From: a virus
Virus record (IMG/VR): IMGVR_UViG_3300028902_000264
Length of the DNA: 64,000 nt
Reading direction: 5' to 3' (one strand)
The first letter of the stretch is position 1; each line of letters begins with the position of its first letter. Shown one piece after another: positions 11,884 to 46,832 of this stretch. The translations under genes were made by a program, and so were the position numbers. The notes under the pieces are model-generated. The model was not told the DNA's origin. It was given only the letters and a program-made list of their open reading frames with translations, and did no database searches.

Positions 11884-14800
11884 ATGGCAACCAATTCCGA
11901 ACTTCTCGAAATGCTCAAACATCTTGGTATTGATTTTGAAAAAGTTTTAAAACACATCCCTGCTATGTATTGGGATAAAATTTATTTTAGTGAAGAAGCT
12001 GCAAAAAAAGCTGGTACTAAGTATTATGCTGTTATTGATGTTAAAAATGATTCATATTATGTTTCAAACCCAATTTCAACTTATGATAGTCTTGTCAATG
12101 GAAAAATTATTAAATCAGAAGATGATAAAACTCTTATAGATGTTACAGATGCTCTAGGAGAAACTCACAAAGTACAGAAGTGGTTTCATGAAAATGTTGT
12201 TAAACTTATTTCAGAAGGAAAAGATATTGTTTATGCAAAAAGTATGTTTCTCGTAGGTGAAAGAGAAGCTATTAAAAATAAAATAAAAACGAGAAGACCA
12301 GAGTTTGAAACCAATGAGTTTTGTTTTGTTAATTCATTCCCTTCTAATTTTGATGAATCTGAATATTTTGTGTATAATACGAAGTTAGATTCGGTAGGAA
12401 CTGGTGCTTCGTATATTAATGACAAGCTTAACTTTTTCACTTTTAATCATAAAAAAATAACAGAGATTTCTAAAAATGGAACAGTCGAACGTATTAATGA
12501 TAGAATTTCAGCGAGTGAACTTACAGGCATAAAATGTTTTTTTATGGAAGCCATCGAAAACTTGGTTTCTGTTAAAACCGAACTCGAAACCAAAGAAAAA
12601 ATTATTCTTTGTGCAAACACAAAAGAATCTGAAGCCAGGACTGTTTCTATTCCTTTTAGCGAATTGAAAAAATATGTTTCCTTGTGGAAGTTCAACAATC
12701 TTGTTATCGCTGATCGACTTGGGGGATCTTATTTTCCTGAAACCCAACACAAAAACAAAACTCATGGTCATGTAGATATCATTCTTGATGACAAACAAAA
12801 TTTAGTCGCCGTTCACAACTATGGCAGAAATGGTCTGGGCAGCTCAAACCATTTGGTCAAGCCAGCTTTGTCTGGCGGATACACTTCTTATTATACTGCC
12901 AACAGTGTTAAGATTACCGAAACAGAAGCTGAAAACCTACGAAAAGAAGAAATTGAGCTCAAAGATTTTTTTGATGTTAAAGCATCCATTCCAAAATGGA
13001 TGTATGATGAGCTCTTATCAAAAGAAGAAGAAATTGTATTTTATACGTCAGAAACATATCATGAGGTTTTTGCCAAAGTAAAAGAAAAACTTATTGGTAA
13101 AAACTTTGTCGCAATCAATATAGGTCATCCTAAGTCTAAAGACAATATTAGCTTTTCAAGATATGAAAATATTTCCAAAGATACATTATTTAATAATTCA
13201 GTGTCTGGGATTCCAAATCTTAAAGATCCAACAGAAATTAAATATCTTTTGTTCGATAAAAGAAAAACGGAGCCCGAAATTTGTGTGTTTGGTCATCAAA
13301 CATTTGGAACCCATAATACTCAATCGGTTGACGAACAATACAAATACATTGTTAAGCAATATAATCAAAAAACAATAAAGTTAAAACAAAAGGAATCTTT
13401 TCAAAAAGAAGTTACTTCTTACCTGAAAGAGCATCCAAAAACTAAAACAAAAAGTCTCTTTATATATTCTTCAAAAGAAGAGTATCTTCAGAATAAAAGC
13501 CGCCTCGAAGAGATTTCTGCTCCAATTGCAATTTGGTTTAAAGATGAAACCACGATTGAATATGACACAAATGCTGCATATCCAACCGTGCCTGGGCAAT
13601 TCCCACCAGTAGCGATAAAACAAAAAGAGCTTTTACCTGATTTGATAGAATCTAGATACTCTCAATATGAGTGTATCGACGATTATTACTATCGATACAA
13701 GCCTCTGTATAAAATATTGCAAGAGGTTATTGAACCCTATAAGTCTCTGATTCAGTTAAGAGTAACACCCGCTGCGTTGCCAAATACTTTACAATATAAT
13801 TCTTCTACAGAGCTTGTTTTACAGGGAATTGAACTTGGAAATCTGCATCGCTTTGATAGCAATAAAGCTAGCGGCACACTAAAAGATGAGATCAAATCTC
13901 ATCTCGAAAAAACATATGAGAAATACTTTACAAGAAAAGACAATCCACCTGCAATACTAAAAACACTTATCGAAGAAAACGATGGGTTTAAAGTGTTTGA
14001 ACAGTTTATCGAAACTGTTTCGCAAAAAGATTTTAACAGACGGGCACTAGATCCATACAAACTTTTTTGTATTGAAGATTCAGTTGTGGTGAATCTTGTA
14101 GATGAATATTCTGAGTGTCACAGTTTTAATTTAACTGATGAAACTAAAGTTAAAGAATTGCATTCGATTTTAAGTTCTATGAAAACCAAACTTCTTAAAG
14201 AAGAAGAGAGAGGAAAAGAACTTAGAGATAGGTTTAAAGAGATTATTAAATCTGTTGGTGGCCAAACCATAAAAAGAGGAGAAGATGTTATATACGATAG
14301 TTTTTTTACAGACTTCGCCCTTACCGAAAAACTATCTTCATCAAGTTCCGTTAATGATCTTATTGAACAAAGTTTAACAAAAACTTATGAAGCCATTGAA
14401 GACACGGTAAATATTCTAAAAGATGAAGGTGAGTTTCTTTTTCTTTCGAAAAAGTTTGCCAAAGAGTTTCCCGAAGCTTTTCTAGAGCTATATTTTGTTG
14501 AATCTGGCGAACAGTATGATAATTTTAATCATCGCGTTGGCGAATATTCTTATGGAATGTGTTTTGAATCTAGTAAAGGCATTTATACTTTATTTGATCG
14601 AAATGGAAAACCTGCTTTCAGTTTTTCTAAAAGCGAAATGCTTAGCTCTAACAATGATAAAGTTGTTGAATATCTAAGAAGTTATTTCAAAAAATGGGAA
14701 GAAGAACACCTTTATTTGGAAGATAAACATCTTTACTTACCAAAGAAATATGATTTCATCATAAAGGACCCAAAACTAAACAAACTTGTTATGTATGATA

Positions 14801-15438
14801 CAGATATTTCTTCTAGCGAAAAAGATTCTTTGCCAAAAGACAGAATCGAAGTTTCTTATAATGAAATAGCTTTTTATGCTCGCGGTATACTTTATGGAAA
14901 AGAAGCTTTTGCCTATGCGACAGATGATGAATCTATCGACATTGAAGATTTCAAGTCTTGTATTTCGCCGCTGCTAAAAGTGGCAGAAATCGCAAAATCC
15001 GATGCCCAAATCGTTGCAAGGCGATTGGTTGCGAAAAACATTAAAGACCTAACCACAAAAATTCTTCTTGCGCTGGCAAAGACAAAGAAAGATATTCCTG
15101 CGATTGAAAAGTTTCTTGAGACTTCTCAAGGGCAGGCTATTGTTGGATTGGTTTCTAGTTTAATTCTAAAAACTTCAATTTCTTATTTCGATTCAAAATA
15201 TCGAAACATCATAGAAGAAATTTCAACCGAAATGAGAATTGCATCTGAAACAGACCTTGCTCTTGGTGCGGTGGACTTTATCCAAGAAACCTTTGAAAGA
15301 GGTTTGTTGAGTAACCATCCTGAACTTGTTAGGGTTGCAGTAGAATCATTTGATCAAACAAAAGAAAAAGAAGACTTTGGTTCTGAGGATTATTCGATTA
15401 TTGAACAACGGTCTCAATCTCCAAAAATGGTGAACTGA
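11884..15438 (+). CDS. Large modular protein, shared-CTD family member 1
   Basis: 1184 aa. CTD AKSDAQIVARRLV...EMRIASET...ELVRVAVES. Paralog of the next gene. Confidence 0.85.
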   Translation: MATNSELLEMLKHLGIDFEKVLKHIPAMYWDKIYFSEEAAKKAGTKYYAVIDVKNDSYYVSNPISTYDSLVNGKIIKSEDDKTLIDVTDALGETHKVQKWFHENVVKLISEGKDIVYAKSMFLVGEREAIKNKIKTRRPEFETNEFCFVNSFPSNFDESEYFVYNTKLDSVGTGASYINDKLNFFTFNHKKITEISKNGTVERINDRISASELTGIKCFFMEAIENLVSVKTELETKEKIILCANTKESEARTVSIPFSELKKYVSLWKFNNLVIADRLGGSYFPETQHKNKTHGHVDIILDDKQNLVAVHNYGRNGLGSSNHLVKPALSGGYTSYYTANSVKITETEAENLRKEEIELKDFFDVKASIPKWMYDELLSKEEEIVFYTSETYHEVFAKVKEKLIGKNFVAINIGHPKSKDNISFSRYENISKDTLFNNSVSGIPNLKDPTEIKYLLFDKRKTEPEICVFGHQTFGTHNTQSVDEQYKYIVKQYNQKTIKLKQKESFQKEVTSYLKEHPKTKTKSLFIYSSKEEYLQNKSRLEEISAPIAIWFKDETTIEYDTNAAYPTVPGQFPPVAIKQKELLPDLIESRYSQYECIDDYYYRYKPLYKILQEVIEPYKSLIQLRVTPAALPNTLQYNSSTELVLQGIELGNLHRFDSNKASGTLKDEIKSHLEKTYEKYFTRKDNPPAILKTLIEENDGFKVFEQFIETVSQKDFNRRALDPYKLFCIEDSVVVNLVDEYSECHSFNLTDETKVKELHSILSSMKTKLLKEEERGKELRDRFKEIIKSVGGQTIKRGEDVIYDSFFTDFALTEKLSSSSSVNDLIEQSLTKTYEAIEDTVNILKDEGEFLFLSKKFAKEFPEAFLELYFVESGEQYDNFNHRVGEYSYGMCFESSKGIYTLFDRNGKPAFSFSKSEMLSSNNDKVVEYLRSYFKKWEEEHLYLEDKHLYLPKKYDFIIKDPKLNKLVMYDTDISSSEKDSLPKDRIEVSYNEIAFYARGILYGKEAFAYATDDESIDIEDFKSCISPLLKVAEIAKSDAQIVARRLVAKNIKDLTTKILLALAKTKKDIPAIEKFLETSQGQAIVGLVSSLILKTSISYFDSKYRNIIEEISTEMRIASETDLALGAVDFIQETFERGLLSNHPELVRVAVESFDQTKEKEDFGSEDYSIIEQRSQSPKMVN

Positions 15439-15440
15439 AA

Positions 15441-18400
15441 ATGAATGGAAATCTAATCAAGCTAGGAAACACAGAAGTTTATGTTGATTTAGAGAAAATT
15501 AAAAAACACATTCCTCCAATTTATTATGAAAGAATGTTTCCAACCATCGAGGCGGCGAAAGCATCGGAAAAAAAGTTTTATGCGGTCATAAATGAAAAGG
15601 ATAATAATTATTATGTTTCTCACCCGCTTGCAGACTATCCTAGTTTGATAAATGGGAAAGAAGAGAGATTTGGTAATGAAACTACCCCAACTCCTTTTAA
15701 AGATGATCTAGGAAAAACAACTTCTTTTCCAAAATGGATCGTGGATATCCTTATTCCAATTGTTTCAAAAGAAGGCAAACAAAAAGTTGTTATTGGAACA
15801 ACAAAAAATTATTTTAATGTTAAAACTGAACTTCGCGAAAAACCTGAATACGATAATCTTGAGTTTTGTTATGTAAACGAGGGCAGCGCTGGCGATGGTT
15901 TTCGATACGCTATGTATAACACAAAAATTGACTTTGTTGGACGCGGAGCTTATTATTACAATAATAAAATAAACTACTATAAAATACTGAATTCTGGTAA
16001 ATTAACCACTTCAAAAAACGGAGATTTGTTTATAGAAGATGGAATCTGCCAGCGCAAATGTTCCGAAATATTAACAAAAATAATTTCAAATTCAAAGTTT
16101 GAACCAATAAACGAAGAACTAAAAGTTAAAGAAGAACCAATCAAAAAAGAAACACCTATAGAAGAAGAAGTTGAACTTCTTACGCAGACAGGACAGTCCA
16201 TTAAAGTTAAATTGGATTTGCTTATGCAACATATTCCGCTATGGGGTTTTTCAAATTGTCTTATTGGAGGAGGAAACTATACTCCTCCTGAATTCATAAA
16301 CTCTGCTAGTAAATCAACGTTAACGGATGTTTATATCAAAGCAGATCAAATAGAAAGTATTAAGAGATATCAAAATTATTCACATGGCAGGTCTTACCGC
16401 CATATAGCAAAAAAATCTTATAAAAAAAATTTGACAACTGGGGAAGAAACTATTGAATATACAAATGTGGTTTGTGATCCAAAAGAAGATATAAAAGAAG
16501 ATCTTCTTAAAACAGAACTCGTGACAGATGTTTTTGGGACACAAGGTCAAATACCAAAATGGCTGTACAATGATTACCTCTCTGAATATGAGAAACAAAA
16601 CATTGTTTTTGTTGACGGCAACAGCGGCGATTCCCTTATTAATAAAATAAAAGAAAAGTTTGGAAACAAAGGTTTTGTTGAAATTAATTTAAAAAGAAAA
16701 GGCGACGAAAACAAGATTGGAATTTTAAGATGCGAGAACGCATCATTGGTTAGAAACTATGATTTGAATGCGACACCAAATCTACAAAATCCAGCAGAAA
16801 TTAAATGGATGTGTTTTGACAAACAAAAACATGAAGTCGAATATTGTTTATTTGGCCACGAAGGATATCGCGAATATATCAACAGCGAGGTTTTAGAAAC
16901 CAAATATAAAAATGATGTAAATCGATATAAAACAGCAATAAAACTTTATAATGAACAGGTAACGAAGAAACTGAAATTAAAAAAAGATAAAGAAGCCCAA
17001 GAAAAAGTTGTTGAAAAACTCCTAGAAAACAAAGACTTAAAAAGAGAATGGATATTTTCTTCAAAAGAAGAGTATCTAAAAAACAAGTCTGAAATTGAGA
17101 AGTCTGGTGCTCCTCTTGCGATTTGGTTTGAAAAAGATAACGAAGTTGTTACTGACCTCGATGCAAGATATACAAAACCAGAAGACATGAAAAGACTTCG
17201 AAAGTTTAACCTTAATGTCGAATTTAACGATCTAAAAAGTCATATTTCAAGCAGGTTACTTAGTTTTGACAAAATTGATGGTATATATAGGTTTCGCCCA
17301 ACACTTAAATATATTAACGATTTGATTTTGAAATTCCCGATTAACCTTTCTTTTTCTAAAGAAAAGAAACCTTTTGAATTTAATTGGTATGAAAACAATA
17401 AAATTGAATTTATCGGAGAAGGAAACAAAGTTTTAGCAAGTTGTGATATTTCTTTAAATGATATTGCAACATGGGCAACAAGTGTTGTCAACCAACATAT
17501 TTCTTGTTATCTTCCTAAAGGAAATGCAATTCCTTCTTTTCTAAAAACAATAGCAGATCAATTTAGTTCTTTTCCGAAAAAAATTAAAATAGTTGAACAA
17601 AACAAGTCTGTGGATATTGAACCATATGATATACATCTAAACCAACACGGAAAACTATCGTTTTATAGTGATTCTAAGGAGTTGGTTGCTGAATTATCAA
17701 CCTTGACAGAAGAAGGGCGCAACGGAATTAAAAAAGAATTTGAAAAATTGCATGCCCAACTAACGGAAAATAGAACAAAATGTACCGAACTCTTAAAAGA
17801 ATACAAAAAAGTGTTTCAAGAAATTATGGAATCTCCTCTTGAAGAACCGCAACTTGCTAATACTTTGCAACGGTATGGAACTGTGTTTGGAATATTCGAA
17901 ATAAATACCAATTATCCCACAAAAGCTATAAATGAGAAATTTGAAAAACAACTTAACGAAGTTAAAAAGAAGATCGAATCAGAATTCTCCTTTTATTCAG
18001 AAGATTCTCTGTGGAAACTTCCAATTCAAGTTTTGAAATTCTTTCCAGAAGACTATAAAAATACATATCAACCATATGGACCAGTTAAGATTGCCGAATT
18101 TTCTGATGTGGAATACTATAATTCCAAACACCCTTATACAATTTATTTTTCTAAAAAGGAAAATTCTTATGCTTTTTCAGATAAGAATGGAAAAATAGTT
18201 CTGACGATTTCTGAACATGATTTTCTAAACGCAACAACCGAAACCGTTTCTGCATTAGCTGAGTATTTTGAGATATGGGAAAATGAACATTTTTATGTTG
18301 GAAGTGAAAAAATTTGCTGCCCTAAAGTTTTAGAAAAATATATTAAAAATGAACAAATCAAGAAAACAATAGGAAATACCGAAAACGGAATTGTGATTGA

Positions 18401-18998
18401 AGCCAATCGACTCACATATTACATCAATGGATATCCAAACCATGTAATGTTTTCTATTGGGAACTTTAACGAAAATGAACTTGATAAAATATTTGAAACC
18501 ATCAAAAAAGAATCGTCTTCAATAAAAAAAGTGGCTCAAATTGCCGAATCAGATTCAAAACTTGTTGCAAAACGCTTGGTTGTAAAAAACATAAATGACC
18601 TATCTTGTTCTGTTCTTTTAACGCTTGTAAAAGCAAAAAAAGACATTCCTTCGATAGAAAAACTTCTTCAAACCACCCAAGGGAAAGCTATTATAGCTAT
18701 GTTCTCAAGTTTGTTATTAAAAGCTTTGTCGAATTATTTTGATGCCAAATACAAACCAATTCTGAATGAAATAGTTGACGAAATGAGAATTTCTGCGGAA
18801 ACAGAAGTATCACTTTCTGTAATCAACTTTGTCGAAGAGGCAATTCTTGAAAAACTAAAATCAAATCCCGAACTTGTTCGAGTTGCTGTCGAATCTTTTG
18901 AATCAACTAACAATTCTTTTTCTGGCTTACAAGAAGACTTGGATGAAAAAGTTTCTTTTTTTGAAACTGTTCAAACCAACAATAAACTGGTGAACTAA
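15441..18998 (+). CDS. Large modular protein, shared-CTD family member 2
   Basis: 1185 aa, colinear with member 1. AESDSKLVAKRLV...EMRISAET...ELVRVAVES. Confidence 0.85.
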   Translation: MNGNLIKLGNTEVYVDLEKIKKHIPPIYYERMFPTIEAAKASEKKFYAVINEKDNNYYVSHPLADYPSLINGKEERFGNETTPTPFKDDLGKTTSFPKWIVDILIPIVSKEGKQKVVIGTTKNYFNVKTELREKPEYDNLEFCYVNEGSAGDGFRYAMYNTKIDFVGRGAYYYNNKINYYKILNSGKLTTSKNGDLFIEDGICQRKCSEILTKIISNSKFEPINEELKVKEEPIKKETPIEEEVELLTQTGQSIKVKLDLLMQHIPLWGFSNCLIGGGNYTPPEFINSASKSTLTDVYIKADQIESIKRYQNYSHGRSYRHIAKKSYKKNLTTGEETIEYTNVVCDPKEDIKEDLLKTELVTDVFGTQGQIPKWLYNDYLSEYEKQNIVFVDGNSGDSLINKIKEKFGNKGFVEINLKRKGDENKIGILRCENASLVRNYDLNATPNLQNPAEIKWMCFDKQKHEVEYCLFGHEGYREYINSEVLETKYKNDVNRYKTAIKLYNEQVTKKLKLKKDKEAQEKVVEKLLENKDLKREWIFSSKEEYLKNKSEIEKSGAPLAIWFEKDNEVVTDLDARYTKPEDMKRLRKFNLNVEFNDLKSHISSRLLSFDKIDGIYRFRPTLKYINDLILKFPINLSFSKEKKPFEFNWYENNKIEFIGEGNKVLASCDISLNDIATWATSVVNQHISCYLPKGNAIPSFLKTIADQFSSFPKKIKIVEQNKSVDIEPYDIHLNQHGKLSFYSDSKELVAELSTLTEEGRNGIKKEFEKLHAQLTENRTKCTELLKEYKKVFQEIMESPLEEPQLANTLQRYGTVFGIFEINTNYPTKAINEKFEKQLNEVKKKIESEFSFYSEDSLWKLPIQVLKFFPEDYKNTYQPYGPVKIAEFSDVEYYNSKHPYTIYFSKKENSYAFSDKNGKIVLTISEHDFLNATTETVSALAEYFEIWENEHFYVGSEKICCPKVLEKYIKNEQIKKTIGNTENGIVIEANRLTYYINGYPNHVMFSIGNFNENELDKIFETIKKESSSIKKVAQIAESDSKLVAKRLVVKNINDLSCSVLLTLVKAKKDIPSIEKLLQTTQGKAIIAMFSSLLLKALSNYFDAKYKPILNEIVDEMRISAETEVSLSVINFVEEAILEKLKSNPELVRVAVESFESTNNSFSGLQEDLDEKVSFFETVQTNNKLVN

Positions 18999-19002: not shown

Positions 19003-19257
19003 ATGGCAATAAAATTCTTCGAAGTGGTTGATAAACAAGGACTAAATAAAATAACCGACAAAGATCTTTTTTATATTTTTGTTGTGGATGAAACTACTGG
19101 AAGTTATGGCATGGAACTTGCTACGGTGTCCGAGGACATTGCGCTTGCGACGGCGAGTGTTTACGCTCGTGTGAGCAAGCCTTGCGTGTGCCTTTTTAAA
19201 AAAGGAACAAAACTGTTTACTGTGAATCAAGACGGCACAAAACTTCTTCTCGGATAA
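19003..19257 (+). CDS. Small hypothetical protein inside the array
   Basis: 84 aa, fills the gap between members 2 and 3. Confidence 0.6.
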   Translation: MAIKFFEVVDKQGLNKITDKDLFYIFVVDETTGSYGMELATVSEDIALATASVYARVSKPCVCLFKKGTKLFTVNQDGTKLLLG

Positions 19258-19263: not shown

Positions 19264-22200
19264 ATGGAAAATAATACCAACCCAAAAAACGGGCAACCGA
19301 CACAAAAATATGATGTTTCTGATCTTGTTGAAGGAATTCCACGTTATATATTTGATCGACTTTCTAAAGTTGCCCAAAAGTCTATTACCCAGTCAGAAGG
19401 TTCGCTAACTCATAAATTAAATGTTTATAAAAAAACTTGTTTTTTATATAATGGAAATCTTGTAGTTGTTGCAACATATCACACAGACAGAAATCAAGCA
19501 GAAGCTGATGAATTTATCGAAAAAGTTAACTCATATTATTCAGAACTTTTAAAAAAATACGATGAGAAGACTGGAATTCCTCTTATTGTTTATGATCGTC
19601 TTTCGGATAAAGCTAAAACTTATCTTCATAGATTTGATGGTTATTCTTCAAGAAGAGAATATATAAACAAATTAACATATGTTGAAAAACAAAATCTTTG
19701 TTTGCGCGACCAACACGGCGATGCAGTAAAACAAGATAGAGAACCAGGTTCTTTTCGTTTTGCTGAAATAGCAACCGAACCAGAAAAGTTGAATCTGTTT
19801 ATTGAAAAGGTAAACAAACATTATGAATCTCTACCTAAGTTAGAAACTTTCGATCTTAAAGACAAAGTAAATGGGGTGCCAAAATATGTTTATGATAAGT
19901 TAAGTAACTTTGCGAAACTGCAAATTGTAAAAAATCACGCAAACCCAAAGAATCTATTAAACCTAATAGAAGTTGGCACAAGGTTTACACTTTGGTTGTA
20001 TGATTCAAAAGGCAACTCATCATTAGGTATAAGTGATGATTCCGCAAAAGAAGATGTAGATAAGTTTGTAAGAGATGTAAATTCTTTTTACTTTTCTCTT
20101 GAGAAAGAGTGCATCGAAAAAGATCGAGACACAGGAATTCCATGTTATGTTTTAAACATGCTTTCAGATGAAGCAAAGAAAAACTTATATAAATACAATT
20201 CCTCAATATCTGATATTGCTCCTGAATATGCAAACAAACTTACACACAACGAACCTACTCTTTGCTTGAGGGACGAAAAAAGTCAAGTAAAAGAGGTCTT
20301 TAAATTTCAAAGTCCGTCAAGTTGGAAACTTGGAGAAAAAAACCTCTTTATTGAGAGAGTAAACTCATATTACGAAACTCTTAAGAAAAAAGAGCTTGAA
20401 AAAACTGAAGAGAAAAGCACAAGCTCAGACCTTGTTTATAAAGAAAACGAGCGAAAAAAAGATGGGCTTCCAGCTTATGTTTCTGATAGGCTATCTTATA
20501 CTGCAAGGTTAAACATTGTTAAAGACATTGCTCGACCAAAAAATCAACTCAATGTTTTAGAAAACAACTGTTGGTTTTATGATAGAACAGGAAAAGTTAT
20601 TTCTATGCTAAACACTACCTCAACAAAAGAAGATGCAGATAAGTTTTGCAAAACCGTAAATGATTATTTTGTTGATATAGGGAAAACATTCACAGAAACA
20701 GATCCTGCCACAAAAATTCCGCTATACGTTTATAACAATCTTTCTGACAAAGCAAAAAAACAGTTATATAAGTTTGATAGAAACAAGTCGCGGTTATCGC
20801 CAGACTATAAAAATAAATTAACGTACTCGGATGATTCTCTCTGTTTTAGAGACAAAGAAAGTAATATTTCCAAAGAAGTAATTTACGATTCTTTCGATTT
20901 TATATATTCTAAAATGGATAAAATTGACAAGTTTCTTGAAACAGTAAATTCATTTTATGAAACCTTTGAAGAAAAAAAACCAGACACAGCAGAATCCCGC
21001 ATACCAGAACACTTTAGAAACCTATTTTCGGCAACCACCAAAAAATACTTGATTAAAATCGATCGAGGTGATGAATCGGATTTAAAAACCTTTGCACTAA
21101 AAGCAACGGTGAGTGATAAGTCTCTCTGCGTTAGAGACTTTTATGGAGTAGAAATTCTTTCTATTGATTTTAGTGCCCCGCTAGGAAAACAACCTGAAGT
21201 CGTTAATAAATATTTTGCGGCGGTTGATACCATTATAAATGGTCTAACACCCAGAGCAAAACAAATTCTGGAAGATAAAACTCTTTTTCTGGATGTGAGA
21301 TTTTACGGCGAGGGTATTTTACAGTGTTATATTAAAAACCATAAAGGTATTGTTATAAAACAATTAACGAATCTCTTCGATTTAGCGACCCAAAAATATG
21401 TTATAAATGCTTTAAACTATTTTGCAAACCATCAAACTCTTCGAACAGAAAAATTTTATTTGGATGACGGGCAAACAAAATTAAAAACCATTTCAAGTGA
21501 AGACATTCTTGATTATATTCCTCTGCTAGACTATTATAAAAACAAAGGAATCGAAAATCTTGATTTTGATTTGTATTCTTATTCGCTTAACAGCATCAAA
21601 CCTTCGATTGTTGGAGGAATGCTTGAATATAACATTAACGGAGATGCTTGTTCGCAAAAACAGTGGTATGAATCTCAAATTGAAACAGTTTCTGTTGAAA
21701 CCTACTCGGGAGAAACAATTGAAGTTCCCTGGTTTATTCAACAAATTATCAAGAATAGAAAAGTTGTTCCTTATCCAAGATTAAGTGAATCCAATATAAA
21801 CTTGAAAACTGAAATCGAGTGGATGTTGAAACAGACGGAAAGTTTCGTGATTTATAACCCAAATCAAAGAGGTGAAGGGGGGCGCTCGTTGATGGAAGTT
21901 GAACCAGAAGAATTTAAAAAAGTATATAAAAAATACTTTGAAGGAAAAGAAGATTGGAGTACCTTTCCCAAGTTTTGGAGAGATCCTGAGATTTATTCTG
22001 ATCGAGAATCTCCAAAAATAACACACATTGTTTTTGATCAAGATGATGCTGTAATGAAAATTACAGAAAAAGATATTTGTGTTGATGGTCAGAGCAAATC
22101 TCTCAGAGAAGCAATTGATATCAAATCAAAGTCAATTAAAGATGAAGCCGAGTTTATGGAGGAGATTTATAAAAACCTTGATGAAAATGGAATACCTGTT

Positions 22201-25900: not shown

Positions 25901-26217
25901 TGGTATCAGGATTGATTCCTCATGTTCTATCACATATTCCAGAAAAATATAGAGAACAAGTTTCTTCCATTTCCGATGAATTAAGAATTCAAGGCGAAAC
26001 CGAAACTGTTATGTTTATTCTCGATAAAGTTTCGAACACAATAAGTGGTAAAATCATTACCGAGTTTTTAAACAAAAACGAGCTTGTTCGAATTGATGTT
26101 TCAAACAATACAAACACATCCGAAAATCGAACCTTAACAAGTGGTCGAGAAGACTTTAACTTGTATGAACTTCAATCTTCTCCTCTAGTGTCAGAAAAAT
26201 CGGCGGTAGTAAAATGA
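22993..26217 (+). CDS. Large repeat protein, shared-CTD family member 4
   Basis: 1074 aa. Five to six GIPKYIW repeats, a central domain and the CTD. Confidence 0.85.
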   Translation: MVTTKKGTPKKTASKPKRELEKNGIPKCLWSKIDGIASTFVENESDASDLKNKVTFTNKSISIRDKEGNKKDYVLFSASEKKLAEFAAKINEWSKTTKSLDLIPDELLKALSKEAKENIINIERIHKLDFDKKPNFSNKLTNDGNSLLLRDGLGYGKFDIHIYYDERSLEKINKFASKVNERYKSSPNPTETKEKKSEEISTELHENGMPKYIWERLSKEAKDNCVNLKLLKDWTHKRVANKITYTNFSITLRDEFGDEGVLYSYNKPEGFNRFIEKANRFYENLKEKEKEEPSVKVDLVTKKEGIPKYIWDGLSEEARKNLLDVSVWGDSIDLNEKITYTYDDILLRIDEYKLIIFSQATKETYDKFIKTANDFYAKKLLSKKEKEEKEKEKEEIFDLLKDKTADGIPKYIWDKLCKKAKENLVHVHQNVLINKLTYNINSIFLRKNDGNINGGGIVFSETSRQQVDEFIEKTNEYFNKEIIPPNQFPLELWKTLPNDVKAEIETSELKYRIMMDMVPTHASFCIEETPYFKFELTNLTTEGKTKFCQAVTTLVRERMPATEKITVRGSGITFGKVLLDEAVNRLSLWDYFNNETISFSKQGFQQSQKKGNIKPGRLLSDDSWVSNWESLSKETHFKNLLEEIEVEDPVTSHKFRIPKFIYDRAKNKCFISYDTFTVRKSRYNKFLSEITEPVYIIDHKSTRYGFVEIQPGDFLAAKNSRLEHCNWWLEKKLYLSYEDNPRITHIDFIVDKNNQAIVESSVFVNGERTYLPIAFKTKSDSIDKFKTMVFDKTDKDGIPCCLSDLLPKNYTFSKSYTSISVKDLSKGHTSEYIRLTDIYSLQDIEKAKRIIQEFISDIETPKAEEKDLKEVEKEEAVKVKEPEIKQEEVKEVAPIIVTANVPVSKLSSIAALDSAETIKRLVSMNITSMVQNLLLELLTEKTGKQKQELLKTKLKEFFKTSNGKTLIQLLVSGLIPHVLSHIPEKYREQVSSISDELRIQGETETVMFILDKVSNTISGKIITEFLNKNELVRIDVSNNTNTSENRTLTSGREDFNLYELQSSPLVSEKSAVVK

Positions 26218-27856: not shown

Positions 27857-27887
27857 AAGCCAGTTTATTCTGGCTTTTCTTATTTTT
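27857..27887 (+). terminator. Intrinsic terminator
   Basis: AAGCCAG-tttatt-CTGGCTT stem followed by TTCTTATTTTT. Confidence 0.7.
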
Positions 27888-35173: not shown

Positions 35174-37165
35174 ATGTCAAAGATTCATATAGACGTTGTA
35201 ATAGATGTTGCTTACGGGGACTGTGGAAAAGGAAAAATCACACATCACCTTGCAACAGAAAACAAGTCTTATACTCATGTAATGAGAACTTCTGGTGGAC
35301 AAAACGCAGGACATACAATTTATCACAAAGGTAAAAAGTATGCAACTCATATCGTTCCTTCGGGAGTGTTTCATGGAATAACTTCGGTGATTGGTTCAGG
35401 TTGCGTCTTTCATCCAGAAAGTCTCTTAAAAGAAATAAAAGAGATTGAATCTCAAGGAGACGTTGAAGTATTAAAGTATCTTAAAATTGCTAAAAACTGT
35501 CATATTGTTACAAACGAACACCTTGCAGAAGAAGCAAAAGAATCAAAAATTGGAACCACAAAACGAGGAATTGGTCCTGCTTACAGAGACAAATATGCAA
35601 GAACAGGAATTAGAGCAGAGGAAGCTCTAAAAGGAACTGTTTTGGAACCTTGTCTTATTGATCTATATGAAGAGTTTTATGTTAAGGATGCCGCGAATTT
35701 TAAACGCATCTTGGTTGAAGGAGCTCAAGGTTTCTATCTTGATATTGATTGGGGAGACTATCCTTTCGTTACCTCAAGCCATTGCGGGCTTGGTGGGGTA
35801 TTCCTTAATGGATTCACCCACAAACAAATTGACACGGTTTACGGGGCTATTAAAGCCTACGAAACCTATGTTGGCTCAAAGCAGTTTGAGGATACTTCAA
35901 ACCCACTGTTTGCAAAAATTCGAGAACTTGGAGCGGAACGCGGAGTAACTTGTATGCCAAAAGGTGAGTTGGTGTTAACTTCTAGAGGGTATATTGCAGT
36001 TGAAAATGTTAAAATTGGTGATAAAGTTATTACTCATACTGGTAAAGTTCGTTCCGTTGCCGATACATCAAAACATGAAAAATCGAAAATATATCAAGTT
36101 ACATTAGAAAATGGCTTGAAATTAAAAACAAACGATAAACATCCTTACTGCTCTGGAAATGATAAATGGATTAGAGCAGATAAATTAAAAATCGGTGACA
36201 TTATCAAATGTCACTCTTCAGATTTGGAAAAATGGAAAAAGATTGAAGAAGAAAACTTTTCAATTTATGAAATATCTTCTTGGGGAAGAGTATACAATAT
36301 TAAAACGCAAAAAATGCTAAAACCTTCTAAAAAAGGTAAATGGGGACATTTGAAAGTGACCCTGCACGAGACTATAAATAGAAAAAAAATAAAAAAAGAT
36401 TTTCCCGTTCATAGACTGGTTATAAAATATTTTGGAAAAAACATTTCAAATTTTGAAACTTTAGAAGTAAGACATTTAAACGGAATTGCATGGGATAATA
36501 ATATAAAAAATTTGATACTTGGTACTCCAAAAGAAAATAGAAAGGATGCTGTTTTACATGGTTCGATGTCTAGAAGGAGGCCAGGATCTCATGGAGGATT
36601 TAAAACAACAAAGCTGAATGAGAAAATTGTTCAATACATTAGAAGTTTGCCAAGAGTTATTGATAATAAAAATCAATCCACCAGTATTTCTGATAAAGAA
36701 TTAGCAAAAAGATTTAAAGTGTCAAGAGAATTGATTAGAGATATAAGAACAAATAAAGCCTGGAAACCAGAAGACCCAAATATGTTAGTTGAAAAACTAG
36801 TAAAGTTTACATATTCAAAAGTATCCAAAATAGAGATTTTGGAAGAGGAACAGGAAGTGTTTGGATTAACAGTCGAAGAAGATGAAAGTCACGTAACTGG
36901 TGGAATAGTTACTCATAATACAGGTCGATCAAGACAAGTAAATTGGATTAATATTGATGAACTTAAAAAGGCGTGCGAGATGAATGCGGTTGATGTTTTG
37001 GTTGTTTCAAAAATGGATATCTTAAAAGGTCTCCAAGAATGGCATGTTAGGAACTCTTCTGGAGAAGTAACTTCATTTAAAACAGAAGAAGAATTTAAAG
37101 GTTATATTCAGAATAGTCTAAAAGGTGTTGAAATCAAATGGTCGTACTCTCCAGAGAAGATATAA
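35174..37165 (+). CDS. purA: Adenylosuccinate synthetase, short type, intein-containing
   Basis: YGDCGKGK, GGQNAGHT, IGTTKRGIGPAYRDK, EGAQG...DYPFVTSS. GVT-TGRSR after splicing (340 aa). Confidence 0.92.
   Translation: MSKIHIDVVIDVAYGDCGKGKITHHLATENKSYTHVMRTSGGQNAGHTIYHKGKKYATHIVPSGVFHGITSVIGSGCVFHPESLLKEIKEIESQGDVEVLKYLKIAKNCHIVTNEHLAEEAKESKIGTTKRGIGPAYRDKYARTGIRAEEALKGTVLEPCLIDLYEEFYVKDAANFKRILVEGAQGFYLDIDWGDYPFVTSSHCGLGGVFLNGFTHKQIDTVYGAIKAYETYVGSKQFEDTSNPLFAKIRELGAERGVTCMPKGELVLTSRGYIAVENVKIGDKVITHTGKVRSVADTSKHEKSKIYQVTLENGLKLKTNDKHPYCSGNDKWIRADKLKIGDIIKCHSSDLEKWKKIEEENFSIYEISSWGRVYNIKTQKMLKPSKKGKWGHLKVTLHETINRKKIKKDFPVHRLVIKYFGKNISNFETLEVRHLNGIAWDNNIKNLILGTPKENRKDAVLHGSMSRRRPGSHGGFKTTKLNEKIVQYIRSLPRVIDNKNQSTSISDKELAKRFKVSRELIRDIRTNKAWKPEDPNMLVEKLVKFTYSKVSKIEILEEEQEVFGLTVEEDESHVTGGIVTHNTGRSRQVNWINIDELKKACEMNAVDVLVVSKMDILKGLQEWHVRNSSGEVTSFKTEEEFKGYIQNSLKGVEIKWSYSPEKI
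35951..36919 (+). mobile_element. Intein (323 aa) with NUMOD4-HNH homing endonuclease
   Basis: Starts CMPKGELVLT, ends GGIVTHN, Thr(+1). Internal YEISSWGRV, VHRLV, VRHLNGIAWDNNIKNL and an HTH-like segment. Confidence 0.92.
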
Positions 37166-38985
37166 TAAAACTTTATCTTAACAATAAAGATGTTTTTAAA
37201 TCTTCTGCTTCGACAAAAACCTATAATCCAAATATTATAGAAAACATATACAGTAAAGATTCAAACATGACAAATAATACGCAGAAATACCATAAGCATG
37301 ACAATCTTTTCCATCGATTGGATGGACCAGCAGTTGAAAATTCTGATGTTGAATTTAATGATGAATATTGGGTTTATGGAGTTCATATTACAACAGAGGA
37401 ACTGTTTAAAACAGTAAGAACTTTTTTTGAAGAAAACAAAGGTTTGGAAATAAAAATTTTTTCCATAGATGAATATCAGAAGTTTCTTAAAGATAGAAAT
37501 GATTATACAGGAATTATAGTAATTCCACAATCTCACTGTTTTTTTAAATTTGTAAATGGAAATATATCTTCGAATAAAGGATATGCGTCAATTGCTTTGT
37601 CGTCAGTATTCTCCAATATGAGTTATTGCTTGGATGGCGTAGTTTTTAACTCGAAAAAAGAATGGGAAATAAAGAGAAAACAAGTTTTTGAGTCAGACTA
37701 TGATGAACTTATTTCTAGGCTTCAAGCGCAAAAAGAAAACTATAAAGATTTTAATCTTCTTTCGTGGTACGACACATATCGCGGAAATAAGACAATTTTT
37801 GTCCAGGATTATCAAGACAACAAAATTTATGATTTTGACTTAACAGGAAAATTATTGTCTCAAACATACTACGAAGACCATACCTTTAGTAAAAAAATTT
37901 CATATTTGGATCATATAAATTTGCGAAACCAAACCGAAACACTTGCTTCTGCTCTTTTTGATAAAGAAATCAAAATAATAAAGAGACACGGATATGAGCA
38001 AATTAATCCACCAGAATATTTTTGTGGTGGAAATTGTTTAGCGAGACTCAAACAAAAAGAAACAGGAGAGATTCTTCAATGCTTGTTTGACACAAAAACG
38101 AAAGACTTTAGATTGAAAATTGGCAACGAAGAATTTCGTTCTGGGCCTAATCTAAAAATGGACTTAGAAAGTTTTCTTAAAAAAGAAGCAGCTTTAACGA
38201 CAAAGGTCTTTTCTTATAAAGATGAATTTAATATTACGAAAACACAAACTACTAATAATAGCTTTCTTTATTATTTTAGTTTTCCAAAACAAAACATGTC
38301 GCATGTCCATTTTGGAGACCTTAAAAAAAATCTATCTGAAACATTTGAATTCAAGTGTCTTGTTAAAGATCATAACTTAAACGAAGAAGAATTTCTTAAA
38401 GAAATAGGAGAATTAATTCCTGAATTTAATATAAGTCATAAAGAGCTGTATATTACAGCACGAAAGGAAATAGATAATCCACCGCCACAACAACAAATAT
38501 TTCCAGATGTTTCGGCCAAAGCAAAAGAGATTGCCAAACGTGTTGCTGTTAAAAGAATAGCAAACATTGTTGCCGCGCTTGTTGTTCAACACATTTTTGG
38601 CAACCTTAAAAAGACAGAACATCAAAAGATAAAAGACTTCTTCAAAACAGATATTGGAATAAGTATTATCAAGGTATTAACATCTCAGTTGTTGCCACTT
38701 CTCAAACCGCAACTACCTGAAAAATATCAAGATGTTTATCAATCTATTGTAGAAGAGTTTGACATACAATCAAAAGTTGATTTAACAGATGGATTTATTG
38801 ATCTTGTTATTGAAAATATAAACACTGATAGTTTCGTTTCATTTCAGTTTTTAGATAATCAAAAGACTGAATCAACAGGTATAAGAGCAAATCCGTTGGT
38901 GCTGGAATCTCCAATCTCGGAAACTCTGGGTGTTTCAATCGAGGCAACCCAGGAAAAAGAAAAACTTCTTCTAGGAAAAGAATAG
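37138..38985 (+). CDS. Shared-CTD family member 9 (divergent CTD) with an HRLDGPA unit
   Basis: 615 aa. HRLDGPAVEN; AKEIAKRVAVK...DFFKTDIG...LPEKYQ...EFDIQSK. Confidence 0.8.
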   Translation: MVVLSREDIIKLYLNNKDVFKSSASTKTYNPNIIENIYSKDSNMTNNTQKYHKHDNLFHRLDGPAVENSDVEFNDEYWVYGVHITTEELFKTVRTFFEENKGLEIKIFSIDEYQKFLKDRNDYTGIIVIPQSHCFFKFVNGNISSNKGYASIALSSVFSNMSYCLDGVVFNSKKEWEIKRKQVFESDYDELISRLQAQKENYKDFNLLSWYDTYRGNKTIFVQDYQDNKIYDFDLTGKLLSQTYYEDHTFSKKISYLDHINLRNQTETLASALFDKEIKIIKRHGYEQINPPEYFCGGNCLARLKQKETGEILQCLFDTKTKDFRLKIGNEEFRSGPNLKMDLESFLKKEAALTTKVFSYKDEFNITKTQTTNNSFLYYFSFPKQNMSHVHFGDLKKNLSETFEFKCLVKDHNLNEEEFLKEIGELIPEFNISHKELYITARKEIDNPPPQQQIFPDVSAKAKEIAKRVAVKRIANIVAALVVQHIFGNLKKTEHQKIKDFFKTDIGISIIKVLTSQLLPLLKPQLPEKYQDVYQSIVEEFDIQSKVDLTDGFIDLVIENINTDSFVSFQFLDNQKTESTGIRANPLVLESPISETLGVSIEATQEKEKLLLGKE

Positions 38986-44930: not shown

Positions 44931-46832
44931 GTGGTGAAACTTTTCTCTGTTCAACCAATAAAAAGAAGGGCTTTCGTTGAAGCTATGGAATACAAAACCG
45001 ACACATTCGAGCCAGCTGAAATGCCAACGAGGTTGACCAAAGAAATGGAAACCTTGAAACTTAAACCACTGGAATTAATTCCACCGAGGTTTACAGGAAT
45101 TATTGAATTTGAATCAGGAACTAAAGAATGGCGAAAAAATGGATCGCTTCATCGGAATGATGGACCAGCGGTTGAATATTGGAATGGAACCAAACATTGG
45201 TATACCGAAGGAAAACGCCACCGAATAGATGGACCTGCTATTGAATGGGCAGATGGAACAAAAGAATGGTGGATTAATGGAAATCTTCACCGAGAAGATG
45301 GCCCAGCTATTGAATGTGAAGATGGAGAAAAATTATGGTTTTTAGATAATAAAGGATATTCCGAAGAAGATTTTAAGAAAGAAATTGAAAAAAGAAATCA
45401 AACTTCATCCAACCAAATGGAGAACACCATGAAGGTCATAAAGCAAAGAGAGGGACTCCCGCTACCAGAAGAAAACTATACAGGAATTATTGAATGGGAA
45501 GATGGAACTAAACTATGGTACAAAGATGGAAAACAACATCGAGAAGATGGCCCCGCGGTTGAATGGGCAGATGGATCAAAAGAATGGTATGTAGAAAATG
45601 AACGGCACCGAATTGATGGTCCTGCGGCTGAATATCCAAATGGAAATAAAGCATGGTGGCTTAATGGAAAATATTATTCCGAAGAAAATTTCAAAAAAGA
45701 GGTTGAAAAAAGAAATCAATCAAAACAGCCCAAACCACAAGGAGAAAATATGATGAAAACAATCAAACTGAAGTCATATGAAAATATTCCTAAAAACTTT
45801 ACTGGTCTTGCGGAATACGAATCAGGAAATAAATATTGGAGTAAAGAAGGAATCTATCATAGACTGGATGGTCCTGCTATTGAGTATGCAAACGGATATA
45901 AAGCATGGTTTAAAGAAGGAAACCGTCATAGAGAAGATGGTCCAGCAATTGAATATCCAGACGGATTAAAAGAATGGTTTAAAGAAGGAAACCGTCATAG
46001 ATTAGATGGACCTGCAATTGAATGGGTAAATGAAAAAAAAGAATGGTGGGTTGAAGACAAGCGGCATAGAATAGATGGTCCAGCAGTTGAATATTCAAAT
46101 GGAGATAAAGAATGGTATATTGAAGGAAAATATTATTTCGAAGAAGATTTCAAGAAAGAAATTGAAAGAAGAAACCAGAAAAACATTAACTCAGAAACAA
46201 ACATCAAAACCGAAATTGCTGCTCCCTTGACAGCCTCCGCGGCAAGCCTCAAGAGTGAAGGTACACCAGCAAGCGAGGAAAAGAAAATGACAAAAAGCAC
46301 GAAGGAAAAGGTTTTTGAGATTGCAAAGTCCGATGCGGTTGAAGTCGCAAAGCGTGTTGCGGTTCAACAAATCAGCAACATCATACAAGATTTGTTGATT
46401 GAATTGATTTCTTCTGGAAAGAAAGGGAAGCAAAAAACTGCTTTGAAGTCTAACCTCGAAGAATTCTTTTCTTCGGAGGCTGGTCGGGCAATGGTAAAGT
46501 TTGCCTCGGGTTTGATGTTGCCGCAATTGGCGACGTACGCCGCCAATTATGGAATGTTGAAACCTCAACATGTTATGATTGTTCAAGTTCTTTCGGAGGA
46601 AATGAGAATTCAGGGGGAAACAGACGCAACCCTTCATGTTATTGATATGGTAACGCCAATGCTCTCGATGCTTACATCGGGGATGACTTCTCAGTTTGGA
46701 AGTTTGTTTTCCTCTTTCGAGGAAACCGTTGAACCTGTTAGGGTTGCTCTTGATTCTGGTGTTGAATCCAATTCAACACACGAGGAAACTGTTGGTTCTT
46801 CTGCGGTTGCCTTGAAAACCGCGATGGGTTGA
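44931..46832 (+). CDS. Shared-CTD family member 10: three HRxDGPA modules (3+2+4 repeats) fused to the CTD
   Basis: Each module ends YxEEDFKKEIExRNQ. CTD AKSDAVEVAKR...EMRIQGET...EPVRVAL. True start may be 45045. Confidence 0.85.
   Translation: MVKLFSVQPIKRRAFVEAMEYKTDTFEPAEMPTRLTKEMETLKLKPLELIPPRFTGIIEFESGTKEWRKNGSLHRNDGPAVEYWNGTKHWYTEGKRHRIDGPAIEWADGTKEWWINGNLHREDGPAIECEDGEKLWFLDNKGYSEEDFKKEIEKRNQTSSNQMENTMKVIKQREGLPLPEENYTGIIEWEDGTKLWYKDGKQHREDGPAVEWADGSKEWYVENERHRIDGPAAEYPNGNKAWWLNGKYYSEENFKKEVEKRNQSKQPKPQGENMMKTIKLKSYENIPKNFTGLAEYESGNKYWSKEGIYHRLDGPAIEYANGYKAWFKEGNRHREDGPAIEYPDGLKEWFKEGNRHRLDGPAIEWVNEKKEWWVEDKRHRIDGPAVEYSNGDKEWYIEGKYYFEEDFKKEIERRNQKNINSETNIKTEIAAPLTASAASLKSEGTPASEEKKMTKSTKEKVFEIAKSDAVEVAKRVAVQQISNIIQDLLIELISSGKKGKQKTALKSNLEEFFSSEAGRAMVKFASGLMLPQLATYAANYGMLKPQHVMIVQVLSEEMRIQGETDATLHVIDMVTPMLSMLTSGMTSQFGSLFSSFEETVEPVRVALDSGVESNSTHEETVGSSAVALKTAMG
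46227..46255 (+). promoter_or_regulatory. Degenerate intragenic promoter upstream of the CTD of member 10
   Basis: TTGACA-gcctccgcggcaagcct(17)-CAAGAG, GAGGA at 46275-46279, in-frame ATG at 46287. Confidence 0.5.

What the first reader, a model, noticed from the sequence alone, without database searches (positions are those of the whole stretch)
11884..46832. Ten modular proteins sharing one unassigned C-terminal domain: an inverted polymorphic system
Seen: genes at 11884, 15441, 19264, 22993, 26214, 27919, 29933, 31600, 37138 and 44931 (519-1235 aa) differ in their N-terminal modules but end in the same approx. 130-150 aa helical domain. Consensus: [AV]xSD[AG]xEVAKRx[VA]...EEFFxSExG[KR]A (hydrophobic helix) LP...IPEKYRE...E[MF]RIQ[GA]ET...E[LF]VR[VI]. 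A 25-35 aa acidic Ser/Thr-rich tail follows, often ending hydrophobic-x-N (MVN, LVN, LVN, TLN). Eight genes form a nearly uninterrupted 22 kb array downstream of the RNA-ligase promoter. I do not recognise the domain. Inference: constant C-terminus plus variable N-terminus is the reverse of classical polymorphic toxins. The CTD may be an oligomerisation, membrane-anchoring or sorting/packaging tag that displays a library of binding modules, for example anti-defence decoys or ejected effectors.
Basis: partly seen in the sequence, partly recalled or inferred. Interest (0 to 1): 0.87.

Follow-up and report, generated by a model that had tools for sequence, protein, structure and literature searches.

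The report
Huge-phage gene family with shared tail domain
A 391-kb wastewater phage carries 13 large genes (ten in this window) that end in the same unclassified four-helix domain and charged tail; the domain recurs in about 940 metagenomic protein clusters, those examined lying on huge-phage-like contigs, and its function is unknown.

Summary
All ten ORFs exist as described. Each ends in a homologous C-terminal domain (CTD) of about 150 aa. The genome is a 390,884-bp T4-like phage from wastewater and bioreactor samples, and it holds three more members, 13 in all.

A profile of the 13 CTDs finds 940 representative proteins. In all 169 inspected, the domain lies within 49 residues of the C-terminus. 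In every related contig examined it occurs in tandem arrays of 3-7 genes. Some arrays include CTD-only genes of 170-205 aa.

Pfam, PHROGs, NCBIfam, PADLOC, PDB sequences and five fold libraries give no match. AlphaFold2 models a confident soluble four-helix unit followed by a disordered tail. The tail ends in a conserved pattern: acidic, then hydrophobic, then small, then basic residues.

The N-termini are not ten unrelated modules. They fall into about three repeat-built groups with no recognisable enzyme domain. They evolve faster than the CTD (dN/dS about 0.32 against 0.15) and gain or lose repeat units between strains.

My best reading (about 35%) is a shared docking handle that couples variable binding modules to one unknown partner. 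A virion-packaging tag, self-assembly, or the CTD as the active part remain open. A membrane anchor is disfavoured.

The scan has not noted this family on other DNA.

The parts
11884..15438 (+). Family member, 1184 aa, N-terminal group A; CTD at 14938-15435
   Evidence: ORF. CTD HMM E 4e-44. N-terminus is 29% identical over 1044 aa to the next gene.
15441..18998 (+). Family member, 1185 aa, N-terminal group A; CTD at 18489-18995
   Evidence: Against the strain ortholog in L036, dN/dS is 0.36 in the N-terminus and 0.14 in the CTD.
19264..22971 (+). Family member, 1235 aa, group B (tandem units of about 100 aa with a GIPxYVxxxLS motif, plus a central PKITH module); CTD at 22435-22968
   Evidence: A strain variant skips 294 nt in frame at 20376-20671.
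22993..26217 (+). Family member, 1074 aa, group B; CTD at 25666-26214
   Evidence: Strains delete 1776 nt in frame (23845-25622) and keep the CTD. Shorter forms of 494 and 977 aa are on record.
26214..27821 (+). Family member, 535 aa, group B; CTD at 27282-27818 (the copy that was modelled)
   Evidence: Best HMM score, E 5e-59. AF2 model of the CTD has pLDDT 82.9. AF2 model of the N-terminal 365 aa has pLDDT 80.9.
27919..29922 (+). Family member, 667 aa, group C (MORN-like HRxDGPA units); CTD at 29383-29919
   Evidence: A terminator-like hairpin at 27857-27876 lies just upstream.
29933..31492 (+). Family member, 519 aa, with its own N-terminus that contains one GPA-type unit; CTD at 30944-31489
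   Evidence: Ortholog P0024 is 33% identical in the N-terminus and 76% in the CTD.
31600..33981 (+). Family member, 793 aa from the ATG (818 aa from TTG at 31525), group C; CTD at 33367-33978
   Evidence: Ortholog P0029 is 27% identical in the N-terminus and 76% in the CTD.
37138..38985 (+). Family member, 615 aa, group C; CTD at 38455-38982
44931..46832 (+). Family member, 633 aa (GTG start), group C with three blocks of HRxDGPA repeats; CTD at 46269-46829
   Evidence: A weak DUF6745 hit lies in the repeat region. This CTD used alone as a query recovers all 12 paralogs.

Best explanation
These genes form a real, previously undescribed multigene family, seen here only on phage or phage-like contigs, several of them very large.

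Each protein has two parts:
- A fast-evolving N-terminal region built from repeats, with no recognisable enzyme domain. There are three types: MORN-like HRxDGPA hairpin units, tandem alpha/beta units of 100-230 aa, and a module of about 1000 aa.
- A conserved, soluble, mildly basic four-helix C-terminal domain of about 135 aa. It is followed by a disordered tail of about 30 aa. The last 18 residues of the tail follow a fixed order: a Glu cluster, then Val or another hydrophobic residue, then Ser/Ala/Thr, then Lys/Arg, then the free C-terminus.

I read the CTD plus tail as a common docking handle. It would bind one shared partner, either a phage or host machine in the infected cell. The variable N-termini would bring different targets to that partner. 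The logic resembles viral adaptor families such as the poxvirus ankyrin/F-box proteins.

What is shown: homology, domain position, predicted fold, array organisation, stronger constraint on the CTD, and absence of known enzyme or transmembrane signatures.

What is inferred: that the CTD docks to a partner, that the N-termini bind targets, and that this happens inside the cell rather than in the virion. The partner is unknown.
For: Position of the domain: it is always at the extreme C-terminus, at most 49 residues from the end in 169 of 169 proteins.

Tail pattern: it is fixed relative to the C-terminus. Acidic residues make up 0.30-0.46 of positions -18 to -13 and 0.01-0.05 of positions -4 to -1. 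A composite test of the pattern is met by 62% of family members and 9% of this genome's other proteins.

Fold: the four-helix model is confident, with pLDDT above 90 for residues 11-130. R29 and G72 are invariant. E105, R107 and R148 are at least 93% conserved across 100 diverse members.

Constraint: in ortholog pairs the CTD is usually much more conserved than the N-terminus, for example 89% against 35% and 76% against 27%. Pooled dN/dS is 0.15 for the CTD and 0.31-0.34 for the N-termini.

Variable N-termini: they lose or gain repeat units in frame between strains while the CTD is kept. Of 116 N-termini from across the family, none has a Pfam enzyme domain and 9 hit only the repeat family DUF6745.

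Copy number: arrays of 3-7 genes occur in every related contig looked at, and this genome has 13 copies.

Gene context: all 13 genes lie among accessory genes (RNA ligases, cREC_REC, PurA, MnmA, a serpin-like gene, a metallophosphatase). None lies in the portal-protease-capsid module at 126-137 kb.
Against: - No partner has been identified.
- Stand-alone CTD-only genes (169-205 aa) sit in the arrays of relatives. The CTD therefore does something on its own, which a simple handle does not explain.
- Nothing here separates an intracellular from a virion location.
- The adaptor analogy rests on architecture alone.
- The N-terminal modules have no recognised fold, so their role as binders is an assumption drawn from their repeat nature.
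Confidence: 0.35

Rival explanations
1. Virion targeting. The CTD plus tail would direct the proteins into or onto the particle. They would be packaged in the giant head and ejected with the DNA, like T4 internal proteins but with a C-terminal signal. Alternatively they would be anchored on the capsid like T4 Hoc, whose C-terminal end is said to bind the capsid (from memory).
For: - A strictly terminal, compositional signal is typical of sorting or translocation signals.
- Variable arrays that share one targeting element recall the variable T4 internal-protein loci (from memory).
- The phage has the T4-type head machinery: Gp23, a T4 portal and an S77 prohead protease.
- Many tails have a hydrophobic residue two or three positions before the conserved Glu. 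Examples seen in the sequences are VVE, IIE, LYE and ISE. This loosely resembles the (L/I)xE site cut by T4 gp21 (from memory).
Against: - The genome already has five paralogs of about 220 aa beginning MKIKPLIFE or MKIKSLIFE, a few kb beyond the capsid gene. These are classic N-terminal capsid-targeting-sequence candidates. The ten window genes and the junction-spanning member lack such an N-terminus.
- None of the 13 genes adjoins the head module (portal, protease, capsid); the tail genes were not located.
- LR745208.1 has four CTD proteins but no Gp23 Pfam match. LR756508.1 has a close major capsid protein but no CTD. The CTD therefore does not track the T4 capsid.
- CTD-only genes carry no cargo.
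- No similarity to this phage's putative scaffold protein (hhalign probability 0.2%).
Confidence: 0.22
2. The CTD is itself the active part. As a basic helical domain it would bind a host target or nucleic acid, and the acidic tail would act as an intramolecular regulator. The N-termini would only localise or regulate it.
For: - CTD-only genes occur in arrays.
- The CTD is the most constrained part of the protein.
- Conserved charged residues (D22, R29, E105, R107, R148) sit in a core with median pI 8.9, followed by an acidic tail.
Against: - Thirteen copies of one effector with different N-termini is uneconomical unless the N-termini confer specificity. That collapses into the adaptor model.
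- No catalytic motif or known fold was found.
Confidence: 0.15
3. Self-assembly. CTDs would co-polymerise or oligomerise into a lattice, filament or bundle. CTD-only subunits would form the core and the extended subunits would display their N-termini.
For: - Long helical hairpins and CTD-only subunits fit this picture.
- The best structural neighbours include polymerising hairpins such as ESCRT-III, Snf7 and CHMP1B. These reach only Z 6.6-7.1 over about 76 residues, which is below the noise level for helical models.
Against: The structural matches are generic. There is no independent sign of oligomerisation.
Confidence: 0.12
4. Membrane anchor. The hydrophobic helix 3 would insert into the host membrane.
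For: Helix 3 (residues 70-90) is the most hydrophobic segment. Ten of 100 members exceed a Kyte-Doolittle mean of 1.6 over 19 residues.
Against: - The median Kyte-Doolittle mean for helix 3 is 0.91, and the median best 19-residue window is 1.36.
- The helix carries Gln, Ser or Lys in most copies.
- AF2 packs it inside a four-helix unit with pLDDT above 95.
Confidence: 0.03

Closest known systems
Poxvirus ankyrin-repeat / PRANC (F-box-like) host-range proteins, and SOCS-box or F-box adaptors in general (from memory)
   Same: A virus-encoded multigene family. Variable N-terminal repeat modules are joined to one conserved C-terminal docking element. There are many copies per genome and the repeat part turns over fast.
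   Different: There is no sequence or fold relation. The CTD is a four-helix unit of about 135 aa plus a tail, not an F-box of about 45 aa. Bacterial hosts have no SCF ligase. The partner is unknown. No binding has been shown.
T4 internal proteins (IPI-III, Alt) with their capsid-targeting sequence (from memory)
   Same: T4-like phage. Variable genes share one terminal element. The proteins could be packaged and ejected.
   Different: The T4 signal is about 10 N-terminal residues ending in (L/I)xE and is removed by gp21. Here the shared element is a folded 150-aa C-terminal domain. This phage has separate candidates of the T4 type beginning MKIKPLIFE.
Polymorphic toxin systems (Rhs, CDI, MAFB)
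   Same: Modular proteins with one constant and one variable end, in arrays, with recombination between modules. In one pair the N-terminus is 77% identical and the CTD only 45%.
   Different: The polarity is reversed. No toxin, trafficking or immunity domains were detected. The genes are in a phage, not a bacterial competition locus.
MORN / MORN-variant repeat proteins (PF02493, PF07661) and DUF6745
   Same: The group C N-termini are tandem units of about 23 aa of the type G.K.WY.NG..HR.DGPA. These look like MORN-type beta-hairpin repeats.
   Different: They do not reach the Pfam MORN models. The only hit is a short one to DUF6745. This concerns only part of the N-termini, not the CTD.
C-terminal 'E-block' translocation signals of Dot/Icm type IVB effectors (from memory)
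   Same: A Glu cluster about 10-18 residues from the C-terminus. It is followed by small polar residues and a non-acidic end.
   Different: No type IV secretion system is implicated. The likeness is in composition only and is recalled from memory. It is a lead, not a test.

Membership tests
Any curated protein family (Pfam-A, PHROGs v4, NCBIfam 20, PADLOC 2) | The CTD matches a family HMM at a significant E-value | tested here: not met
   No hit covers the CTD in any of the ten proteins. A profile search of PDB sequences gives a best E of 0.27.
Polymorphic toxin systems | Conserved N-terminal trafficking region with a variable C-terminal toxin domain | tested here: not met
   The polarity is reversed. 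The C-terminus is constant and the N-terminus varies.
Polymorphic toxin systems | A recognisable toxin domain and an adjacent immunity gene | tested here: not met
   No toxin or enzyme domain in the ten proteins or in 116 family N-termini. The genes abut each other with no small downstream partner, apart from one 84-aa ORF.
T4-type internal head proteins | N-terminal capsid-targeting sequence of about 10 aa ending in (L/I)xE | tested here: not met
   The N-termini of the ten do not resemble the MKIKPLIFE start shared by five paralogs at G000 118693-122015, a few kb beyond the capsid gene.
T4-type internal head proteins | Physical presence in the head and processing by the prohead protease | not testable with these tools
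   The S77 protease is encoded. Packaging and cleavage need proteomics.
Poxvirus ANK/PRANC-type adaptors | C-terminal F-box-like motif that binds Skp1 | tested here: not met
   No Pfam PRANC or F-box hit. This is an analogy of architecture only.
MORN repeat proteins | Repeats that match PF02493 or PF07661 | tested here: not met
   Only DUF6745 was hit: E 4e-10 in the 44931 protein, and in 9 of 116 family N-termini. By eye the repeats resemble MORN.
ESCRT-III / PspA-like polymerising helical hairpins | Fold match well above background that covers the domain | tested here: inconclusive
   Z 6.6-7.1, rmsd 1.9-3.8 Å, 76-83 residues aligned (model residues 69-150 only). The tool's stated noise level for helical models is about 13.
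Phage scaffolding proteins with a C-terminal coat-binding helix-turn-helix | Similarity to the phage's own scaffold protein or to solved scaffold domains | tested here: inconclusive
   hhalign against the 655-aa acidic protein upstream of the capsid gene gives probability 0.2%. One generic match to a putative capsid-protein domain, 2r9i, reaches Z 7.1 over 68 residues.
Integral membrane or tail-anchored proteins | A hydrophobic segment of about 19 residues or more with transmembrane-level hydropathy | tested here: not met
   The median best 19-residue Kyte-Doolittle window is 1.36. Helix 3 has a median of 0.91. Ten of 100 members exceed 1.6.

The most novel reading that the evidence does not exclude
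The CTD and its conserved tail would be a docking or engagement signal for an AAA+ unfoldase or protease, either host or phage encoded. The family would then be a phage-encoded library of substrate adaptors that delivers host proteins, such as defence proteins, for unfolding or degradation. This would be a bacterial-virus counterpart of the poxvirus ankyrin/F-box families.

There is one anecdotal lead. In four distant contigs, AAA-type ATPase genes lie 0.7-8 kb from CTD genes. In one of them a proteasome-type subunit gene lies next to the ATPase.

Against this, the ATPases are not orthologous. This genome has no ClpP or proteasome gene, and its one AAA gene lies 24 kb from the nearest member.
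Probability: 0.1. Interest if true: 0.85.

Novelty: new variant of a known kind. Interest (0 to 1): 0.6.

Why it matters
Huge phages devote much of their extra coding capacity to unknown paralog families. This one is large: 940 clusters at 50% identity. It is sharply defined: always C-terminal, with a conserved terminal signal, and always in arrays. It takes up about 35 kb, roughly 9%, of this genome.

The family has no entry in Pfam, PHROGs or NCBIfam, and no structural relative was found. Defining it gives annotators a new domain model.

It also gives experimenters a tractable handle. The CTD is a small soluble domain that can be used as bait to find the common partner. The partner would show whether these phages run an adaptor system against the host or a new route of protein packaging. 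The variable N-termini would then be a natural library of binding modules.

Tried and rejected
- **Homodimer prediction.** The CTD was submitted as two copies with alignment A2. Result: no verdict (score 0.26, mark 0.42). It counts neither for nor against oligomerisation.
- **Fold searches of the CTD model.** PDB Foldseek gave no E<=1e-3. BFVD gave only an uncharacterised phage protein, probably a family member. VIA-align wide gave only generic hairpins at Z<=7.1. AFDB clusters and the ESM Atlas gave nothing. The Atlas feature search scored only 0.78.
- **Fold searches of the N-terminal module of the 26214 protein.** Nothing in PDB Foldseek, VIA wide (best Z 4.0) or AFDB. This was a three-subdomain model searched whole, so individual subdomains are barely tested.
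- **IMG/VR pattern scans.** The alignments were too divergent to search with. A single CTD found no relative.
- **Nucleotide searches of GenBank phages.** No match.
- **T4 late-promoter motif.** TATAAATA is under-represented (22 and 17 sites against 54-71 expected) and does not sit upstream of these genes. Gene timing could not be inferred.
- **Sigma-70-like sites.** No more frequent than in shuffled sequence.
- **An apparent upstream motif.** An enriched 8-mer set turned out to be the coding sequence of another paralog family.
- **RNA-library contigs.** They cover the array, but contigs cannot show transcription and DNA carry-over is possible.
- **AAA ATPase as a conserved partner.** The ATPases near CTD genes in different contigs share only the Walker region. 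Both a CTD-positive and a CTD-negative huge phage have weak matches.
- **Phage-encoded ClpP or proteasome.** Absent from this genome.
- **Conserved protease site at the N-terminus/CTD boundary.** The hydrophobic-x-E at the start of helix 1 is not conserved; that position holds E, Q, S, D, A, P, T or G.
- **Literature.** No paper was found on this family, on DUF6745 or on LR745208.

Full report
**1. Where the window lies**

The window is the minus strand of bases 323758-387757 of a 390,884-bp virus record with direct terminal repeats. The repeat is 141 bp, consistent with a circular assembly.

The genome encodes a T4-type major capsid protein (Gp23, E 3e-59). It also encodes a T4-type portal and an S77 prohead protease and a large terminase.

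The nearest capsid proteins in GenBank are 34-43% identical. They belong to Microcystis and Flavobacterium phages and to uncultured huge phages of 484-595 kb. This is therefore a distant T4-like huge phage.

Near-identical DNA is present in bioreactor, wastewater and activated-sludge runs from at least five studies. A related contig has been binned with a Leptospiraceae MAG. That is a weak hint about the host at best.

**2.

The ten ORFs are as described. Their C-termini align with the quoted motifs.

- One CTD used alone as a query finds the 12 other genomic copies at E 6e-28 to 4e-9.
- An HMM of the ten finds exactly those ten in the window. It finds three further copies elsewhere in the genome at E 5e-34 to 4e-26, and nothing else below E 0.3.
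- One of the extra copies spans the record junction and is 448 aa long.
- Twelve of the 13 genes lie within about 74 kb.

**3. It is a large family, always C-terminal and always in arrays**

A profile of the 13 CTDs was searched against 1.84 billion representative proteins. It finds 940 at E<=1e-3, 252 at E<=1e-10 and 56 at E<=1e-30, with lengths of 129-1604 aa.

In all 169 proteins inspected, the domain ends at most 49 residues (median 15) before the C-terminus.

The related contigs examined all hold tandem arrays:
- Seven copies in 18 kb in L016.
- Seven in L019.
- Three each in L022, L023 and L028.

Close relatives keep the same synteny: Rnl1, cREC_REC, the array, an Rnl2-like gene, then PurA.

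Distant members sit in contigs with hallmarks of huge phages. These include tRNA synthetases, a ClpB-like ATPase and a 349-kb contig.

The uncultured 485-kb phage LR745208.1 has four CTD proteins of 1146-1260 aa and no Gp23 Pfam match. LR756508.1 has a close capsid protein and no CTD.

Arrays in relatives include CTD-only genes:
- 174 aa (P0054, found in 56 blocks of the collection).
- 201 aa, 205 aa and 169 aa in other contigs.

The CTD is therefore an autonomous unit.

**4. What the CTD looks like**

AlphaFold2 was run with a 100-sequence alignment. The model has pLDDT 82.9, and above 90 for residues 11-130. It has helices at 11-48, 53-68, 70-90 and 93-146, followed by a disordered tail.

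R29 and G72 are invariant across the 100 sequences. E105, R107 and R148 are at least 93% conserved.

The core is mildly basic, with median pI 8.9. The 'hydrophobic helix' is not of transmembrane grade: its median Kyte-Doolittle mean is 0.91.

The tail has an order fixed relative to the free C-terminus:
- Acidic residues at -18 to -13.
- Val or another hydrophobic residue at -15 to -12.
- Ser, Ala or Thr at -11 to -7.
- Lys or Arg at -7 to -2.
- Almost no acidic residue in the last four positions.
- Asn, Lys, Ala or Gly as the last residue.

A composite of these features holds in 104 of 169 family members and in 28 of 303 other proteins of this genome (odds ratio 16). The family members are related, so this p-value overstates independence.

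No curated family, solved structure or predicted-structure library gives a credible match.

**5. What the N-termini look like**

They are not ten unrelated modules.
- Group A (11884, 15441) is homologous over about 1040 aa.
- Group B (19264, 22993, 26214) shares tandem alpha/beta units and a central module.
- Group C (27919, 31600, 37138, 44931 and the three outside copies) carries MORN-like HRxDGPA repeats.

The N-terminal 365 aa of the 26214 protein model confidently (pLDDT 80.9) as mixed alpha/beta subdomains with no fold match. The first 235 aa or so of this region is duplicated in tandem in relatives.

Across 116 family N-termini, Pfam finds only the repeat family DUF6745, in 9 of them, and no enzyme domain.

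**6. How the two parts evolve**

In most ortholog pairs the CTD is far better conserved than the N-terminus. In a few the reverse holds, for example 77% in the N-terminus against 45% in the CTD. That indicates module exchange.

Against two near strains, pooled Nei-Gojobori dN/dS is 0.31-0.34 for the N-termini and 0.15 for the CTDs.

Strains differ by in-frame losses of 1776 nt in the 22993 gene and 294 nt in the 19264 gene. Shorter 494-aa and 977-aa versions of the 22993 gene also exist. The CTD is retained in every case.

These are expressed-looking genes under purifying selection, with a plastic N-terminal part.

**7. Interpretation**

The data fit a conserved docking or handle domain joined to variable binding modules. 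I put this at about 0.35, with the partner unknown and the intracellular setting inferred from gene context.

A virion-targeting role is about 0.22. Several points weaken it:
- There are five separate candidates beginning MKIKPLIFE, the T4-style capsid-targeting type, a few kb beyond the capsid gene.
- None of the genes adjoins the head module; the tail genes were not located.
- The CTD does not track the T4 capsid.
- The CTD shows no similarity to the putative scaffold protein.

The CTD as the active part is about 0.15. Self-assembly is about 0.12. A membrane anchor is about 0.03.

The tail's composition recalls C-terminal translocation or engagement signals. That is a lead from memory only.

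**8. Novelty**

As a sequence and fold family the CTD is unassigned. I found no paper describing it.

As a kind of system it resembles viral multigene adaptor families, with a constant terminal element and variable repeats. I therefore rate it a new variant of a known kind rather than categorically new, because no new mechanism has been shown.

Noticed in passing
G000:C1:118693-122015 (L024:694-4016, minus strand), outside the window: Five tandem paralogs of about 220 aa all begin MKIKPLIFE or MKIKSLIFE. They lie a few kb beyond the capsid gene. They look like T4-style internal head proteins, with an N-terminal capsid-targeting sequence ending in I-x-E.
   Followed up: partly
window 1942, 2427, 34445, 52332, 61312, 61675, 62073, and about 20 more sites in G000 at 64-94 kb: About 28 small ORFs share a coding motif of the type LTE.GI.EFPIIPGME near their ends. 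This is a second large paralog family, and some members carry HRxDGPA units. It first looked like an upstream DNA motif.
   Followed up: partly
window 35174-37165: PurA (adenylosuccinate synthetase) is interrupted by an intein with NUMOD4 and HNH domains. Relatives have both intein-containing (668 aa, L016) and intein-free (338-343 aa, L019 and L028) versions.
   Followed up: partly
window 11481-11873: A 130-aa cREC_REC gene (cyclic-phosphate processing receiver domain, E 9e-19) overlaps the stop of the Rnl1 RNA ligase. It directly precedes the array, and this order is conserved in all close relatives. It probably belongs to the RNA-repair set rather than to the family.
   Followed up: partly
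window 23845-25622 and 20376-20671: Strains in wastewater runs carry in-frame deletions of 1776 nt and 294 nt inside two family genes. The repeat modules are therefore length-polymorphic in nature.
   Followed up: yes
L022, L023, L037 and LR745208.1 near 49.2 kb: AAA-type ATPase genes lie 0.7-8 kb from CTD genes in four distant contigs. One is ClpB-like, and another lies next to a proteasome-type subunit gene. The ATPases are not orthologous, so this may be chance.
   Followed up: partly
G000:C1:126372-128204 (L024:8376-10205), outside the window: The 610-aa ORF just downstream of the capsid gene contains GIY-YIG and NUMOD1 homing-endonuclease domains at residues 371-506.
   Followed up: no
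G000:C1:42822-48923, outside the window: Next to the isolated family member at 49-51.5 kb lie a GHKL-ATPase protein, a serpin-like protein (E 7e-9) and a weak TerD-like protein.
   Followed up: no
G000:C1:305000-316000, outside the window: A stretch of about 10 kb has only short, mixed-strand ORFs with Arg/Ala-rich translations, unlike the rest of the genome. It may be non-coding or foreign DNA.
   Followed up: no
window 19003-19257: An 84-aa ORF sits between the second and third array genes. It is conserved in strains and relatives (83-84 aa genes in L016, L035 and L036) and has no Pfam match.
   Followed up: no
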